From an uncultured Pseudomonadales bacterium (lineage in GTDB: Bacteria > Patescibacteriota > Microgenomatia > UBA1400 > CAYNFZ01), in assembly GCA_964396725.1 (NCBI GenBank), contig CAYNFZ010000002.1, positions 1 through 29,332 of the forward strand: a stretch of 29,332 bases of DNA, given 5' to 3'. How positions within the stretch are numbered: the first letter of the stretch is position 1; each line of letters begins with the position of its first letter. A model generated the notes under the pieces. That model did no database searches. It was given only the letters and a program-made list of their open reading frames with translations, and had not been told where the DNA came from. The position numbers were made by a program, and so were the translations under genes. Shown piece by piece: positions 2,301 through 6,676 of the stretch.

Positions 2301-2369
2301 TTATTGGTTGTATTTTCGTGTTTCTAGACGGGGTTGCGGAATGATATTAAAAATATTAATGGTTGTCAT
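2301..2369 (-). CDS. Possible leaderless 22-aa uORF at the start of the gltX transcript
   Basis: MTTINIFNIIPQPRLETRKYNQ*. The ATG is 7 nt after a -10 hexamer, i.e. at the expected TSS. Could be chance. Confidence 0.3.
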   Translation of the reverse strand: MTTINIFNIIPQPRLETRKYNQ

Positions 2370-2372
2370 CCC

Positions 2373-2402
2373 TTGCATTCTACCAGGCGTGAAAGATATA
2401 CT
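2373..2402 (+). promoter_or_regulatory. Putative sigma70 promoter, overlapping the divergent one, giving a leaderless mRNA
   Basis: TTGCAT (2373-2378), 18 nt, TATACT (2397-2402), then 6 nt to the ATG at 2409. Confidence 0.55.
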
Positions 2403-2405
2403 CAA
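2377..2405 (-). promoter_or_regulatory. Putative sigma70 promoter pointing toward gltX
   Basis: Minus strand TTGAGT (2405-2400), 17 nt, then TAGAAT (2382-2377) preceded by TGG (extended -10). Confidence 0.6.
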
Positions 2406-2408
2406 CGC

Positions 2409-3524
2409 ATGGCAACGTTGACTGAAGTGGCGCAAGTGGCGAAAAGAGGAGTGCTGGCGAGTGTGGTGTTGGTGGTGAGTTTGGTGGTAGGAAGAATTTT
2501 GTGGACCTATGGATTGTTACTTTATAAAAGTTTGAATCCGCCACCTTGTCCGACGGCTACAGCTCGATTTGGGTTATTGCCACGGATAATATTTCCAGAA
2601 TCAGGAGAAGAGTTGAGTTATCAGTTGGAAACTCCCAATGGAAAGGTGGAAAGTTTTGGTCCAAATGCGAGAGTGTATTTTGTGAGTTCAAAGAGATCGA
2701 ATTTGTTGGCATTGGATCGGGTAAAAAGCCAGGCTCAGGCTTTGGGTTTTTTGCATGAACCGGAGAGGGTGTCGGAAACGGTGTATCGGTGGGATAAAAG
2801 TGACCCATTGCCAGCAAGATTGGAGATGAATATTATCACGGGGAGTTTTCAGATGGATGTGGCTTGGGAGACGGATCCGGGGTTTTTGCAGAATAAGTTG
2901 TTGCCGGATGAAGAGCAAGCGGTGAGAGATGTAAAGACGTTTTTGAAACGACCCGGTTTGTTGAAAGATGATTTGGAAAGTGGGGAGAGTGTAACTACGG
3001 TGTTGGGTTATAAAGGGGGAGAGTTTATTAGAGCAGTGAGTTTGTCGGAGGCGGATTTTGTGATGGTGGATTTGTTCAGGGCGCCTTTGGTGATCGAAAC
3101 GCCTGAAGAAGCGACTCCGGAACAATTGCGGTGTATGGATAAGCAGGGAAGCGGAAAGGTGATACCGGCTGAACCTGGAAAAGGATTGGCACGAGTGTTA
3201 GTGTCTGGGTCACGAGATCAGGGAGAACGATATGTGTCGGCGGAATATAGATACACACAAGTGGAGTATGAACAGTACGAGACTTACCCGATTATTAGTG
3301 GATTGGAGGCTTGGAAGAAATTACAGGCTGGCGAAGGATTTGTGGCGGAGAAACCCAATTCAGGGACGGCGATGGTGAGAAGGGTGGATTTGGGATACTA
3401 TGATGCTTTGGATGGGTCAAATTATTTACAACCGATATATATATTTACGGGAGATGATTTTATGGGATATGTGCCGGCAGTGAAAACGGAGTATTTACAG
3501 CAAGAGGGAAGTGGTGGGAAGTGA
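2409..3524 (+). CDS. Membrane-anchored hypothetical protein (Microgenomates-type)
   Basis: Long ORF. Start reassigned from the track's 2334 to the ATG at 2409 (MATLTEVAQVAKRG...), which follows a -10 box. N-terminal TM helix, Pro-rich linker, C-terminal YLQPIYIF...YVPAV. No catalytic motif recognised. Confidence 0.8.
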   Translation: MATLTEVAQVAKRGVLASVVLVVSLVVGRILWTYGLLLYKSLNPPPCPTATARFGLLPRIIFPESGEELSYQLETPNGKVESFGPNARVYFVSSKRSNLLALDRVKSQAQALGFLHEPERVSETVYRWDKSDPLPARLEMNIITGSFQMDVAWETDPGFLQNKLLPDEEQAVRDVKTFLKRPGLLKDDLESGESVTTVLGYKGGEFIRAVSLSEADFVMVDLFRAPLVIETPEEATPEQLRCMDKQGSGKVIPAEPGKGLARVLVSGSRDQGERYVSAEYRYTQVEYEQYETYPIISGLEAWKKLQAGEGFVAEKPNSGTAMVRRVDLGYYDALDGSNYLQPIYIFTGDDFMGYVPAVKTEYLQQEGSGGK

Positions 3525-4582: not shown

Positions 4583-6418
4583 TTATTTGGAGAAGCTGCC
4601 GGTTTGAGGTTGTTCGGCGCGAAGATAGTCGGAGAGAGACATGGAGATGGTGTGATCGTGTACGCCGGGGTTGAAGTTGATGGTGGTTTGTTGAGTCAAG
4701 GCTTTGTCTATGAAGGTGGGGAGATTAAAAAGAGATCCGAATGGGGGAACGGCTCCGATTTTAACTCCAATTGTTTGTTCGACTTCTTCAGGTGAAGCCA
4801 GGCGGAGGTCGTGAATGTGGTGGAGTTGTTTTAATGCTTTTGTATCGACTTTGGTGGCGGCGGAGACGACCACAAGAATGGGGGATTTATCGGCGATCAT
4901 GACTAAGGCCTTGGCTCCGGTGGCAAGACTAGCGCCACGAACACGAGCGGCTTCCTCAGAGGTATGGACTGGTTGGTGAGAAGTAAGAGAGTAGGGGATG
5001 TTCAAGGAGTCGAGTTTGGATTTGAGTTGATCGAGGACGGAGCCGGAGGATGGGGTTTGATTGAGAGAGATGCCGAGTTCTAAGAGTTGAGCGGGATCGA
5101 GAACTGAGGGTGCATCCATGACGGAGGTACGGCCACGACCTGTTTGGGGAAAAGCTTGGACTTCGCGAATGTATTCTTCTCCTAGATGAGCCATGAGTAA
5201 TCGTTCGAAGCCATGGGCACAACCGCCGTGGGGTGGAGTGCCGAAGGAGAAGGCGTCGAGCATGTGGCCAAATTTTTGGTCGATTTGGCGATCTTGGTAA
5301 CCCATGATTTGGAAGACACTACGGAGAACTTCGGGCTTGTGGGCGCGGATACTGCCACCAGCAACCTCGAGACCGTTGCATACGAGGTCGTATTGGTTGG
5401 TAATAATTTGATCGATGTTTTGTTGGTTGAGGAGCCAATCGAGGTGGTCGTTTATGGGTTGAGAGAAGGGGTTGTGGGTGAAGGTCCAAGATCCGTTTTC
5501 GGTTTTTTCGAAGAACGGAAAATCGATAACCCAAGCGAAAGAAAGAGTGCCGGCTTGTTTTTCTGTTTCGGTTCTCAAGTCGAATTTGTCAGCACCGTAT
5601 TTTTCCATGGCTTGTTGGTAGGTAACGACGGGGAAGGGAGTGGAGGCAATATTGGCATCAATTTGTTGACAAGCATGAATGATCATTTGTTCGATGAGGT
5701 TCATGACATCTTCTCGAGAAACGAAACTCATTTCCAGGTCGATTTGGGTGTGCTCAAAGGCGCGATCGGCACGGGGATCTTCATCTCGTAAACAACGGGC
5801 AACCTGGAAATAGCGTTCGAAACCAGCGGTCATGAGTAATTGTTTGTATTGTTGAGGGCTTTGAGGAAGAGCGAAGAATTTACCGGGTTGAAGTCGACTG
5901 GGGACAACAAAGTCGCGTGAACCCTCGGGGGTAGATTTGGTAAGTATAGGAGTTTCGATTTCGGTGAAATTTTGGGAGAAGAGATATTCACGAGCGGCTT
6001 TGATGTAAGCGGAGCGAAGTTTGATGTTTTTTTGGAGGCGTGGTCGACGTAGATCGAGGTAACGGTGTTTAAGTCTGATTTCTTCGTTAATATCGAGTCC
6101 GTCGGTATCTTTGGGGATGGGGAGGGGGGCTGAGGGGTTAAGGATAGAAAGGTGGGTGGCGACTAACTCAACTGTACCGGTAGCCATGTCAGGGTTGGTC
6201 ATGGACTTGGGGCGCAGGTTGATTTTTCCGATAACTTCGACGACGTCTTCTTGGGAGGCTTTGGTGTCTTTGGTGGTGACAACTTGGAGGATGCCAGAGC
6301 GATCTCTGATGTCGAGAAAAACGATTTTACCGTGATCGCGTCTGGTGTTGACCCAACCTTTGATAGTAACTGACTCGCCTACTTTGGCTGGCGTGTCGGT
6401 GATGAGTGTGCGATTCAT
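4583..6418 (-). CDS. aspS: Aspartate--tRNA ligase (compact) fused to a C-terminal YbaK/ProX (INS-superfamily) domain
   Basis: OB fold (GWVNTRRDHGKIVFLDIRDRSG), LKHRYLDLRR, motif 1, LPQSPQQYKQLLM, motif 2 (CLRDEDPRADR), motif 3 (PPHGGCAHGFERL). The last ~155 aa show H..V.T.EEAA...GAKAL...GAVPPFG...FNPG, the YbaK/ProX pattern. Confidence 0.97.
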   Translation of the reverse strand: MNRTLITDTPAKVGESVTIKGWVNTRRDHGKIVFLDIRDRSGILQVVTTKDTKASQEDVVEVIGKINLRPKSMTNPDMATGTVELVATHLSILNPSAPLPIPKDTDGLDINEEIRLKHRYLDLRRPRLQKNIKLRSAYIKAAREYLFSQNFTEIETPILTKSTPEGSRDFVVPSRLQPGKFFALPQSPQQYKQLLMTAGFERYFQVARCLRDEDPRADRAFEHTQIDLEMSFVSREDVMNLIEQMIIHACQQIDANIASTPFPVVTYQQAMEKYGADKFDLRTETEKQAGTLSFAWVIDFPFFEKTENGSWTFTHNPFSQPINDHLDWLLNQQNIDQIITNQYDLVCNGLEVAGGSIRAHKPEVLRSVFQIMGYQDRQIDQKFGHMLDAFSFGTPPHGGCAHGFERLLMAHLGEEYIREVQAFPQTGRGRTSVMDAPSVLDPAQLLELGISLNQTPSSGSVLDQLKSKLDSLNIPYSLTSHQPVHTSEEAARVRGASLATGAKALVMIADKSPILVVVSAATKVDTKALKQLHHIHDLRLASPEEVEQTIGVKIGAVPPFGSLFNLPTFIDKALTQQTTINFNPGVHDHTISMSLSDYLRAEQPQTGSFSK

Positions 6419-6421
6419 GAT

Positions 6422-6614
6422 GAGCCCTTAATAATTGGTTGATAAACAAAAAGGTGCCACCTGATTGAAGGGTCTCTTGATAATAAGAGACGGTGCCACC
6501 TTGTAATACTTGTTCCTGCTGTGACGGGCTTACCCGGCCTGGTTTGGTGCGATGACTTCTCCCAAGCAGCGTACCTAGATTAAGGTCGTCCAGTGTCAAT
6601 GGACTGATGACGCT
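6422..6614 (-). ncRNA. T-box riboswitch (Asp), ultrashort Stem I, probably translational
   Basis: Antiterminator AAGG-UGGCACC-GUCUCUU(AUUAUC)AAGAGAC-CCUU (6502-6468). Stem IIA CGGG(UAAG)CCCG with an F-box-like CCGUCA. Stem II GCUUGG/CCAGGC. Stem I GUCCA(UUGACAC)UGGAC with GAC at 6597-6595. Directly upstream of aspS. Confidence 0.85.
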
Positions 6615-6629
6615 TTTGTAATTGAAATG

Positions 6630-6658
6630 ATTTTATCCAGACTAGGCTTTGTGGTCAA
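6630..6658 (-). promoter_or_regulatory. sigma70 promoter for the T-box/aspS transcript
   Basis: Minus strand TTGACC (6658-6653), 17 nt, TAAAAT (6635-6630). The predicted TSS falls about 10 nt before T-box Stem I. Confidence 0.75.
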
Positions 6659-6676
6659 GGTGAGATAAATGTGGAT

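What the first reader, a model, noticed from the sequence alone, without database searches (positions are those of the whole stretch)
4583..5050. AspRS carries a C-terminal YbaK/ProX (INS-superfamily) editing-type domain
Seen: after class II motif 3 the ORF continues in frame for about 155 aa with H..V.TSEEAA, GAKAL (the conserved Lys position of YbaK/ProXp deacylases), GAVPPFG (GxxxP loop) and FNPG. Established: INS-superfamily domains are cis-editing inserts of ProRS or free trans-editing deacylases (YbaK for Cys-tRNAPro, ProXp-ala, ProXp-x, ProXp-ST), and bacterial AspRS normally has no such domain. Inference: either AspRS gained proofreading (for example against Glu, Asn, D-Asp or other non-cognate amino acids scavenged from a host), or a trans-editing factor rides on AspRS and so comes under Asp T-box control.
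Basis: partly seen in the sequence, partly recalled or inferred. Interest (0 to 1): 0.75.

Follow-up and report, generated by a model that had tools for sequence, protein, structure and literature searches.

The report
AspRS fused to tRNA proofreading domain
An ultra-small (Patescibacteria/CPR) bacterium makes its aspartyl-tRNA synthetase as one protein with a YeaK/ProX-type tRNA-deacylase domain that is the separate next gene in many relatives, which hints at an unstudied proofreading step for an enzyme not known to proofread.

Summary
ORF 4583..6418 (-) encodes 611 aa: a bacterial-type AspRS without the GAD insertion, a ~30-aa linker, and a full PF04073 (INS-superfamily) deacylase domain (E 1.8e-29) that keeps the catalytic Lys (K503) and the GXXXP loop (G555-P559). 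Contigs from three salt-marsh runs cross the junction without indels, so it is not an assembly artefact.

The domain is not YbaK proper. Its nearest characterised relative is E. coli YeaK/ProXp-ST1 (35% identity, full length). Its nearest solved structure by sequence is Legionella lpg1207 (3OP6).

In a 401-genome phylum sample I inspected 69 loci with this family. In 28 the deacylase is a separate gene just downstream of aspS, and in 8 it is fused. The partner can be any of three AspRS backbones, and DPANN archaea carry aspS-edit-asnS. In other lineages the same gene is fused to its other neighbour (an S11 carboxypeptidase), and a paralogue is fused to class II LysRS.

No residue is specific to the aspS-linked copies. 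The substrate is unknown.

I found no paper describing this architecture. This scan has reported the same fusion before on other genomes (e1-688347, e1-873548, e1-1326002, e1-1048404) and the LysRS version (e1-1196709).

The parts
4583..6418 (-). Whole fused gene aspS::edit (611 codons plus stop at 4583-4585)
   Evidence: ORF list and translation; NCBIfam bacterial aspS NF001750 590.7 bits against a cut-off of 443
6140..6370 (-). AspRS anticodon-binding OB fold (residues 17-93)
   Evidence: Pfam PF01336, E 1.9e-13
5141..6088 (-). Class IIb catalytic core (residues 111-426), contiguous, no GAD insertion domain
   Evidence: Pfam PF00152, E 1.5e-109, one stretch covering profile positions 1-307 of 308; no PF02938 hit; same coordinates
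5051..5140 (-). AspRS C-terminal tail and ~30-aa linker (residues 427-456); this is the junction of the two ancestral genes
   Evidence: Alignment A1; first 10 residues of the domain model have pLDDT 58; contigs bridge it without indels
4586..5050 (-). INS-superfamily (YeaK/ProXp-ST-like, lpg1207-like) aminoacyl-tRNA deacylase domain (residues 457-611)
   Evidence: Pfam PF04073, E 1.8e-29; AF2 model pLDDT 93; Foldseek TM 0.73-0.86 to 2CX5, 3OP6, 1DBU and 2DXA; 35% identity to E. coli YeaK
4910..4912 (-). Codon of K503, the superfamily's catalytic/aa-tRNA-stabilising lysine
   Evidence: Invariant in 89 family members and 100% in all groups; role taken from PMC11286415
4742..4756 (-). GXXXP loop G555-A-V-P-P559
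   Evidence: G555 and P559 invariant in alignment A4; role taken from PMC11286415
3495..4532 (-). Downstream neighbour: S11 D-Ala-D-Ala carboxypeptidase, 50 nt after the fusion gene; part of the conserved block recJ-aspS-edit-S11
   Evidence: Pfam PF00768, E 2.1e-53; synteny; no terminator-like site between the genes
6419..6660 (-). Leader of the fused gene: promoter-like TTGACC-17-TAAAAT (6658-6630) and two GGTGGCACC motifs

Best explanation
Shown: this is a genuine, conserved fusion protein. It is a GAD-less bacterial-type AspRS whose C-terminus carries, on a ~30-aa flexible linker, an intact INS-superfamily aminoacyl-tRNA deacylase of the YeaK/ProXp-ST-like (lpg1207-like) clade. The fusion arose by merging aspS with the gene directly downstream of it. 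The aspS-deacylase pair is conserved across CPR bacteria and occurs in DPANN archaea. Inferred: the domain is catalytically active and acts as a tethered post-transfer proofreader coupled to AspRS. After the synthetic site releases the acceptor end, the CCA end of a mis-acylated tRNA (tRNAAsp or a near relative) is sampled by the deacylase pocket. There the conserved Lys and GXXXP loop position the ester for hydrolysis. By analogy with YeaK, the rejected residue is most likely a small non-cognate amino acid such as Ser or Thr. Tethering supplies the tRNA selectivity that free INS-family enzymes lack and limits promiscuous deacylation.
For: Architecture and integrity. Active-site conservation: K503, G555 and P559 are invariant in 89 sequences, and H481, T486, K503, G555, P559-G561, D571, N583-G585 are >=83% conserved in 71 aspS-linked copies. 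Fold: pLDDT 93, TM 0.73-0.86 to solved INS members. Closest characterised enzyme: YeaK, 35% over 161 aa. Linkage: of the 69 loci inspected (from 109 of 401 phylum genomes with a match), 8 are fused to aspS and 28 have aspS immediately upstream. The partner can be a GAD-less bacterial, GAD-containing bacterial or archaeal-type aspS. DPANN archaea carry aspS-edit-asnS. The AspRS tree needs at least 3 fused/split changes. A paralogous YeaK-like domain is fused to another class IIb enzyme, LysRS, in 6 protein clusters, and Ser/Thr-tRNALys is a stated ProXp-ST substrate (PMC11295145). Precedent for synthetase-conferred specificity: the YbaK-ProRS-tRNA ternary complex, and MCP3 in the T. brucei MSC (PMC11286415).
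Against: No mis-acylation by AspRS is known (my own knowledge). No column distinguishes aspS-linked copies from unlinked free-standing ones in Planctomycetota and Chloroflexota, so there is no sign of a specificity tuned to AspRS. Outside CPR/DPANN the three free-standing homologues I checked (labelled Planctomycetes, Verrucomicrobia and one unlabelled) are not next to aspS. In one CPR genus the same gene is fused to its other neighbour, a membrane-anchored S11 peptidase. So neighbour capture can happen without an obvious functional logic. The whole recJ-aspS-edit-S11-gltX block is syntenic in CPR, which could explain both adjacency and in-place aspS replacement without selection for coupling. 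Thirty of the 69 CPR loci are unlinked. This genome's ThrRS and AlaRS keep their own editing domains, and DTD is present.
Confidence: 0.45

Rival explanations
1. Hitch-hiking general trans-editor. The domain is an ordinary member of a widespread free-standing ProXp-ST-like family that clears Ser/Thr (or another small amino acid) from many tRNAs. Its position next to aspS is inherited CPR synteny. The fusion is a tolerated stop-codon loss between tightly packed genes, and AspRS serves at most as a dimeric scaffold.
For: All conserved positions are identical in linked and unlinked copies. The gene also fuses to the S11 peptidase on its other side. Split and fused states interleave on the AspRS tree. 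The three free-standing homologues outside CPR that I checked are unlinked to aspS. ProXp-ST1/ST2 have broad tRNA specificity (PMC11295145).
Against: Linkage to aspS holds across three unrelated AspRS backbones and across the bacteria/archaea divide. In the six fused LysRS clusters a paralogue sits on a second class IIb synthetase. Fused forms persist across deep CPR lineages (Gottesmanbacteria, Wirthbacteria, Dojkabacteria).
Confidence: 0.33
2. Asx gatekeeper. The deacylase hydrolyses Asp-tRNAAsn (or another Asp/Asn cross-charging product) made by a relaxed AspRS, where transamidation cannot rescue it.
For: DPANN genomes carry aspS-edit-asnS. They show only a GatE-type amidotransferase hit (631-632-aa frames) and no GatB-sized one. 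Archaeal-type AspRSs score above cut-off on NCBIfam's aspartate-tRNA(Asn) ligase model.
Against: The Woesearchaeota AspRS has Lys at the position of T. kodakarensis K85 and lacks the His/Pro signature that I recall for non-discriminating enzymes (the signature is from my own knowledge). The window's genome has both AsnRS and GatCAB, which would convert Asp-tRNAAsn anyway. The active site is the same as in free-standing copies of phyla with no aspS link. No conserved basic residue specific to linked copies was found for a carboxylate side chain.
Confidence: 0.08
3. Non-catalytic appendage. The domain serves only as an extra tRNA-binding or chaperone module, for example compensating for the missing GAD domain.
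For: This AspRS lacks the GAD insertion. Appended tRNA-binding domains are common in synthetases (general knowledge).
Against: The catalytic Lys and GXXXP loop are invariant. Fusions also exist on GAD-containing AspRS (P0204, 744 aa). The same protein is free-standing in most genomes.
Confidence: 0.07
4. Assembly or sequencing artefact that joins two genes.
For: Many relatives have two genes that abut or overlap.
Against: Contigs from three runs cross the junction with no indel. Dozens of independent fused orthologues align through the linker.
Confidence: 0.02

Closest known systems
E. coli YeaK (ProXp-ST1/ProXp-y), free-standing Ser/Thr-tRNA deacylase of the INS superfamily
   Same: 35% identity over the full 161-aa domain (E 2e-22). 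It is the top Swiss-Prot structural match. Shared GAKAL lysine motif, G..PPF loop and FNAG motif.
   Different: YeaK is a single-domain protein. It differs at family-conserved positions (K for T486, S for G561). The window's domain is covalently joined to AspRS.
Legionella pneumophila lpg1207 (PDB 3OP6), uncharacterised INS-family protein
   Same: Best PDB sequence match (66.6 bits, E 2.4e-17). 30-32% identity and TM 0.73-0.86. Shares the PPFG and FNAGxH motifs.
   Different: It is free-standing and has no known function. Whether this clade equals ProXp-ST2 or one of the uncharacterised ProXp-8/-9 clusters could not be settled, because no named reference sequences were available.
INS editing domain of bacterial ProRS, and N-terminal ProXp-ala-ProRS fusions of protists
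   Same: An INS-superfamily deacylase built into a class II synthetase polypeptide, using the conserved Lys and GXXXP loop (PMC11295145, PMC11286415).
   Different: The partner is ProRS, not AspRS. INS is inserted between motifs 2 and 3, or appended at the N-terminus, whereas here it is C-terminal. The substrate there is Ala-tRNAPro. This genome's own ProRS already has an INS domain.
YbaK (Cys-tRNAPro deacylase) working in a ternary complex with ProRS and tRNAPro
   Same: A trans-editor with poor tRNA selectivity gains specificity by associating with a synthetase (PMC11286415). The fusion here would make that association permanent.
   Different: Sequence membership fails: TIGR00011 scores 48.7 against a cut-off of 153.25, NF007951 scores 22.8 against 243, and identity to E. 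coli YbaK is 24% over 83 aa.
LysRS-YeaK-like fusions of CPR bacteria
   Same: A class IIb synthetase with a C-terminal INS-family domain on a linker. The two domains are 33% identical.
   Different: The partner is class II LysRS. That domain is closer to YeaK (42% over 114 aa) and forms its own clade (97* support).

Membership tests
INS superfamily (Pfam PF04073, YbaK/ProX fold) | Profile match above the curated cut-off | tested here: met
   102.8 bits against 25.5, E 1.8e-29, profile positions 1-122 of 123
INS superfamily (Pfam PF04073, YbaK/ProX fold) | YbaK-type alpha/beta fold | tested here: met
   AF2 pLDDT 93 and pTM 0.87. Foldseek probability 1.00 and TM 0.73-0.86 to 2CX5, 3OP6, 1VKI, 1DBU and 2DXA.
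INS superfamily (Pfam PF04073, YbaK/ProX fold) | Strictly conserved lysine and GXXXP loop (PMC11286415) | tested here: met
   K503 and G555-P559 are invariant in 89 family members and in all groups
INS superfamily (Pfam PF04073, YbaK/ProX fold) | Aminoacyl-tRNA deacylase activity | not testable with these tools
   Needs an enzyme assay
YbaK proper (Cys-tRNAPro deacylase) | NCBIfam equivalog score above cut-off | tested here: not met
   TIGR00011 48.7 against 153.25; NF007951 22.8 against 243. 24% identity over 83 aa to E. coli YbaK.
ProXp-ala | Family-conserved H23, K50, R80, H130 (C. crescentus numbering, PMC11286415) | tested here: not met
   Mapped through the HMMER alignment to 5VXB, assuming a +3 chain offset. 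H23 corresponds to H481 (kept) and R80 to R539 (kept here, below 75% in the family). K50 corresponds to A509 and H130 to N583 (both not kept). Score is only 36 bits.
ProXp-ST1 (YeaK) | Orthology to E. coli YeaK | tested here: inconclusive
   35% identity over the full length, and YeaK falls at the edge of or inside the family in poorly supported trees. But it differs at conserved positions 486 and 561. No ProXp-ST2 or ProXp-x reference sequence was available for a decisive tree.
Bacterial-type AspRS | Equivalog models above cut-off | tested here: met
   NF001750 590.7 against 443; TIGR00459 528.8 against 373.85. Best PDB matches are bacterial AspRSs.
Bacterial-type AspRS | GAD insertion domain between motifs 2 and 3 | tested here: not met
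   No PF02938 hit, and the core is contiguous at 111-426. Relatives such as P0204 do have it.
Synthetase with a cis-editing domain | Editing domain in the same polypeptide as the synthetic site | tested here: met
   Single ORF; contigs bridge the junction
Synthetase with a cis-editing domain | The domain hydrolyses products mis-made by its own synthetic site | not testable with these tools
   Needs mischarging and deacylation assays

The most novel reading that the evidence does not exclude
Class IIb synthetases (AspRS, and LysRS in sister lineages) of CPR bacteria and DPANN archaea need post-transfer proofreading. The widespread, functionally unassigned lpg1207/YeaK-like deacylase family would be their dedicated editor, free, operon-linked or fused. 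That would add AspRS to the seven synthetase families known to edit and would give one of the orphan INS clusters a function.
Probability: 0.3. Interest if true: 0.8.

Novelty: new variant of a known kind. Interest (0 to 1): 0.6.

Why it matters
Reviews count seven synthetase families with editing domains and describe free INS-superfamily members as single-domain proteins (PMC11295145). As far as I know, AspRS is not one of the seven. An AspRS, and in sister lineages a LysRS, permanently joined to an apparently active deacylase would be a natural experiment: it would say that class IIb synthetases make errors worth correcting in organisms that scavenge amino acids from hosts. The conserved aspS-deacylase pair gives a concrete, testable partner for an INS clade without an assigned function. 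It also gives a ready-made system (fused, split and unlinked forms) for asking how tethering shapes the tRNA specificity of promiscuous trans-editors.

Tried and rejected
- Complex prediction, AspRS core (1-445) against the domain (455-611): no verdict (score 0.08). This is not evidence either way.
- tRNA discriminator check: ARAGORN finds 35 tRNAs in the assembly but no tRNA-Asp or tRNA-Asn, so acceptor-stem reasoning was impossible.
- Rfam: no T-box or any other family in the window at gathering score, or in the leader at E<=10.
- RNA evidence: no RNA holder listed.
- First related-loci run with the 16-sequence alignment failed for lack of a conserved stretch. I repeated it with 7 sequences.
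- Liu et al. 2015 (PMC4434731) is not held. I found no paper naming PDB 3OP6. So I could not decide whether the clade is ProXp-ST2.
- I first took PDB 2DXA for YeaK; its molecule name and scores show it is E. coli YbaK.
- D-Asp idea (the domain replaces DTD): made less likely because DTD is present.
- Idea that the domain compensates for lost ThrRS/AlaRS editing: made less likely because both keep tRNA_SAD editing domains.
- Search for specificity-determining residues unique to aspS-linked copies: none found.
- The domain trees are poorly resolved, so I draw no conclusion on the number of fusion events from them. I used the AspRS tree instead.
Full report
WHAT IS THERE

The window has one uninterrupted ORF at 4583..6418 on the minus strand, 611 aa. 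Pfam splits it into three parts:
- an anticodon-binding OB fold (residues 17-93);
- a contiguous class IIb catalytic core (111-426, E 1.5e-109);
- a complete tRNA_edit/PF04073 domain (481-600, E 1.8e-29).

NCBIfam calls the N-terminal 430 residues a bacterial aspartate-tRNA ligase above cut-off (590.7 against 443). There is no GAD insertion domain.

Contigs assembled separately from three salt-marsh metagenome runs cross the junction with no difference and no gap. So the fusion is not an assembly accident, although one of these runs may be the source of the assembly.

WHAT KIND OF DOMAIN

An AlphaFold2 model built on 89 family members has mean pLDDT 93. It superposes on solved INS-superfamily proteins at TM 0.73-0.86: T. 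thermophilus ProX 2CX5, Legionella lpg1207 3OP6, H. influenzae YbaK 1DBU and E. coli YbaK 2DXA.

All characterised INS members use a conserved lysine and a GXXXP loop (PMC11286415). Here these are K503 and G555-P559. They are invariant in 89 sequences and in every subgroup I compared.

By sequence the domain is not YbaK:
- TIGR00011 scores 48.7 against a cut-off of 153.
- Identity to E. coli YbaK is 24% over 83 aa.

It is not ProXp-ala either. Its score to 5VXB is 36 bits, and the H130 and K50 equivalents are Asn and Ala.

Its best solved relative by sequence is the uncharacterised lpg1207 (66.6 bits). Its best characterised relative is E. coli YeaK/ProXp-ST1, at 35% identity over the whole domain (E 2e-22; top Swiss-Prot structural hit).

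I could not obtain named ProXp-ST2, ProXp-x or ProXp-7/8/9 sequences. The clade is therefore assigned only as 'YeaK/lpg1207-like'.

WHERE IT COMES FROM

The domain belongs to a large family of free-standing proteins of about 155 aa, 40-50% identical to it. Members occur in Planctomycetota, Chloroflexota, Betaproteobacteria, CPR and DPANN.

I searched an even sample of 401 genomes of the window's phylum. 109 have a match at E<=1e-10. I inspected the 69 best loci:

| State of the deacylase gene | Loci |
|---|---|
| Fused to aspS | 8 |
| aspS immediately upstream, same strand, often overlapping | 28 |
| Fused to the downstream S11 carboxypeptidase | 2 |
| Fused to a class II LysRS | 1 |
| Unlinked | 30 |

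The block recJ - aspS(-)edit - S11 peptidase - conserved hypothetical - gltX seen in the window recurs in several places:
- Candidatus Gottesmanbacteria;
- 'Patescibacteria group' MAGs;
- many MAGs labelled 'uncultured Gammaproteobacteria', which share this synteny and are probably mislabelled.

A Candidatus Wirthbacteria contig carries the fused gene, but the other block genes were not detected in its locus.

So the window's gene is aspS merged with its operon neighbour.

HOW GENERAL THE ASPS LINK IS

The linked or fused aspS can be of three kinds:
- GAD-less bacterial type (41 loci, 26 fused);
- archaeal type (19 loci, 9 fused);
- full bacterial type with GAD (8 loci, 1 fused; also P0204, 744 aa).

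On an AspRS tree the archaeal-type and bacterial-type clades each contain fused members. At least three fused/split changes are needed, and at least two are forced by well-supported branches.

Within single CPR families the deacylase domains are each other's closest relatives, while the upstream aspS is archaeal-type in one genome and bacterial-type in another. Examples are G039 against G249, and G272 against G030. So aspS has been replaced in place.

Two archaeal MAGs, one labelled Woesearchaeota and one labelled Methanosarcinales (which I take for a DPANN-like genome from its cassette and its kinship to the Woesearchaeota copy), carry aspS-edit-asnS. Their only amidotransferase hit is GatE-sized, with no GatB-sized frame.

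Outside CPR/DPANN I checked three free-standing homologues (one labelled Planctomycetes, one Verrucomicrobia, one unlabelled). None is near aspS.

WHAT THIS SAYS ABOUT FUNCTION

Shown:
- The fold and catalytic motifs are intact.
- The fusion is conserved.
- Linkage to aspS recurs.

Inferred: the domain is an active aminoacyl-tRNA deacylase working with AspRS.

Three arguments support functional coupling:
- The link holds across three AspRS backbones and both prokaryotic domains.
- A paralogous YeaK-like domain is fused to LysRS, another class IIb enzyme, in six protein clusters. Ser/Thr-tRNALys is a stated substrate of ProXp-ST enzymes (PMC11295145).
- INS trans-editors are known to borrow tRNA specificity from a synthetase: the YbaK-ProRS-tRNA complex, and MCP3 in the trypanosome MSC.

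Four arguments count against it:
- No alignment column separates aspS-linked from unlinked copies, so the chemistry is probably that of the whole family.
- The same gene has also fused to the unrelated S11 peptidase. That product is a real single ORF with a transmembrane segment between the domains. Neighbour capture can therefore be function-blind.
- Conserved CPR synteny could by itself explain both adjacency and in-place aspS replacement.
- As far as I know, AspRS has no documented mischarging.

In this genome ThrRS and AlaRS keep their editing domains, and DTD, AsnRS and GatCAB are present. ProRS has its own INS domain, and there is no other PF04073 protein.

My odds:
- 0.45 for an AspRS-coupled tethered proofreader, most likely removing a small amino acid such as Ser or Thr;
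- 0.33 for a hitch-hiking general trans-editor;
- 0.08 for an Asp-tRNAAsn gatekeeper. This is weakened because the Woesearchaeota AspRS keeps the K85-type residue of discriminating enzymes, and because GatCAB is present here;
- 0.07 for a non-catalytic tRNA-binding role;
- 0.02 for an artefact.

NOVELTY

Public records name these proteins simply 'aspartate-tRNA ligase'. Full-text searches for AspRS with YbaK, for fusion, and for CPR synthetase editing found no description. A 2024 review states that seven synthetase families edit and that free INS members are single-domain proteins. I therefore rate the finding as a new variant of a known kind.

This scan has already reported the same architecture on other genomes, and the LysRS version too. 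Those notes agree with what I found independently.

- the split-gene operon origin and how common each state is;
- the S11 counter-example;
- the absence of linkage-specific residues;
- contig-level confirmation of the junction.

Rfam did not reproduce the T-box.

Noticed in passing
whole window and whole genome (G000, 162 contigs): Extreme strand asymmetry. GC skew is +0.24 to +0.70 in every 1-kb bin of the window, whatever the gene orientation. |GC skew| exceeds 0.2 in 160 of 162 contigs, typically about 0.4, with AT skew near 0. Proteins on the C-rich coding strand, including this AspRS, look enriched in P/H/Q/T/S, and those on the G-rich strand in G/E/V/K/R. I have no explanation.
   Followed up: partly
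L158:2519-4498 (-) (genome G360); proteins P0287-P0293: A class II LysRS (NF001756, 578 bits) with a C-terminal YeaK-like PF04073 domain in one 660-aa frame. Six protein clusters show this architecture. The domain is 42% identical to E. coli YeaK over 114 aa. The scan noted this earlier (e1-1196709).
   Followed up: partly
L037:1423-3042 (+), L038:475-2001 (-), protein P0225: In one CPR genus the deacylase gene is fused to its downstream neighbour instead. The order is cytoplasmic PF04073 domain, charged linker, one transmembrane helix, S11 D-Ala-D-Ala carboxypeptidase.
   Followed up: partly
L066:1188-4285, L108:1176-5458: MAGs labelled Woesearchaeota and Methanosarcinales carry aspS(archaeal type)-deacylase-asnS in a row. 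Their genomes show only a GatE-sized amidotransferase hit, with no GatB-sized frame.
   Followed up: partly
L004 (G000:C56:262-4191): In the window's own genome asnS sits between gatA and gatB (gatA-asnS-gatB), an unusual arrangement.
   Followed up: no
proteins P0137, P0139, P0166; G288:C3:6404-7312: Proteins made of two or three tandem PF04073 domains (448, 491 and 303 aa) form their own clade (98* support). One phylum genome has two copies of the domain in a single 784-aa frame.
   Followed up: no
L052, L054, L056, L059, L063, L067, L068, L079, L085, L088, L090, L091, L094, L096, L105, L120 and others: Many MAG contigs titled 'uncultured Gammaproteobacteria/Pseudomonadales' (TPA assemblies) carry the CPR block recJ-aspS::edit-S11-hyp-gltX. 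In the AspRS tree they group with Gottesmanbacteria. The taxonomic labels are probably wrong.
   Followed up: no
window 2334-3524 (+): A 396-aa protein with no Pfam hit is conserved next to the S11 gene in many of the CPR loci inspected. It is convergent with the S11 gene and overlaps its 3' end by 30 nt.
   Followed up: no
window 6419-6660 (-): The aspS leader has a promoter-like site and two GGTGGCACC motifs, the second followed by a T-run. Rfam reports no T-box.
   Followed up: partly
genome G000: ARAGORN finds only 35 tRNA genes and none for Asp, Asn, Gln or Met, in an assembly rated 97.6% complete.
   Followed up: no
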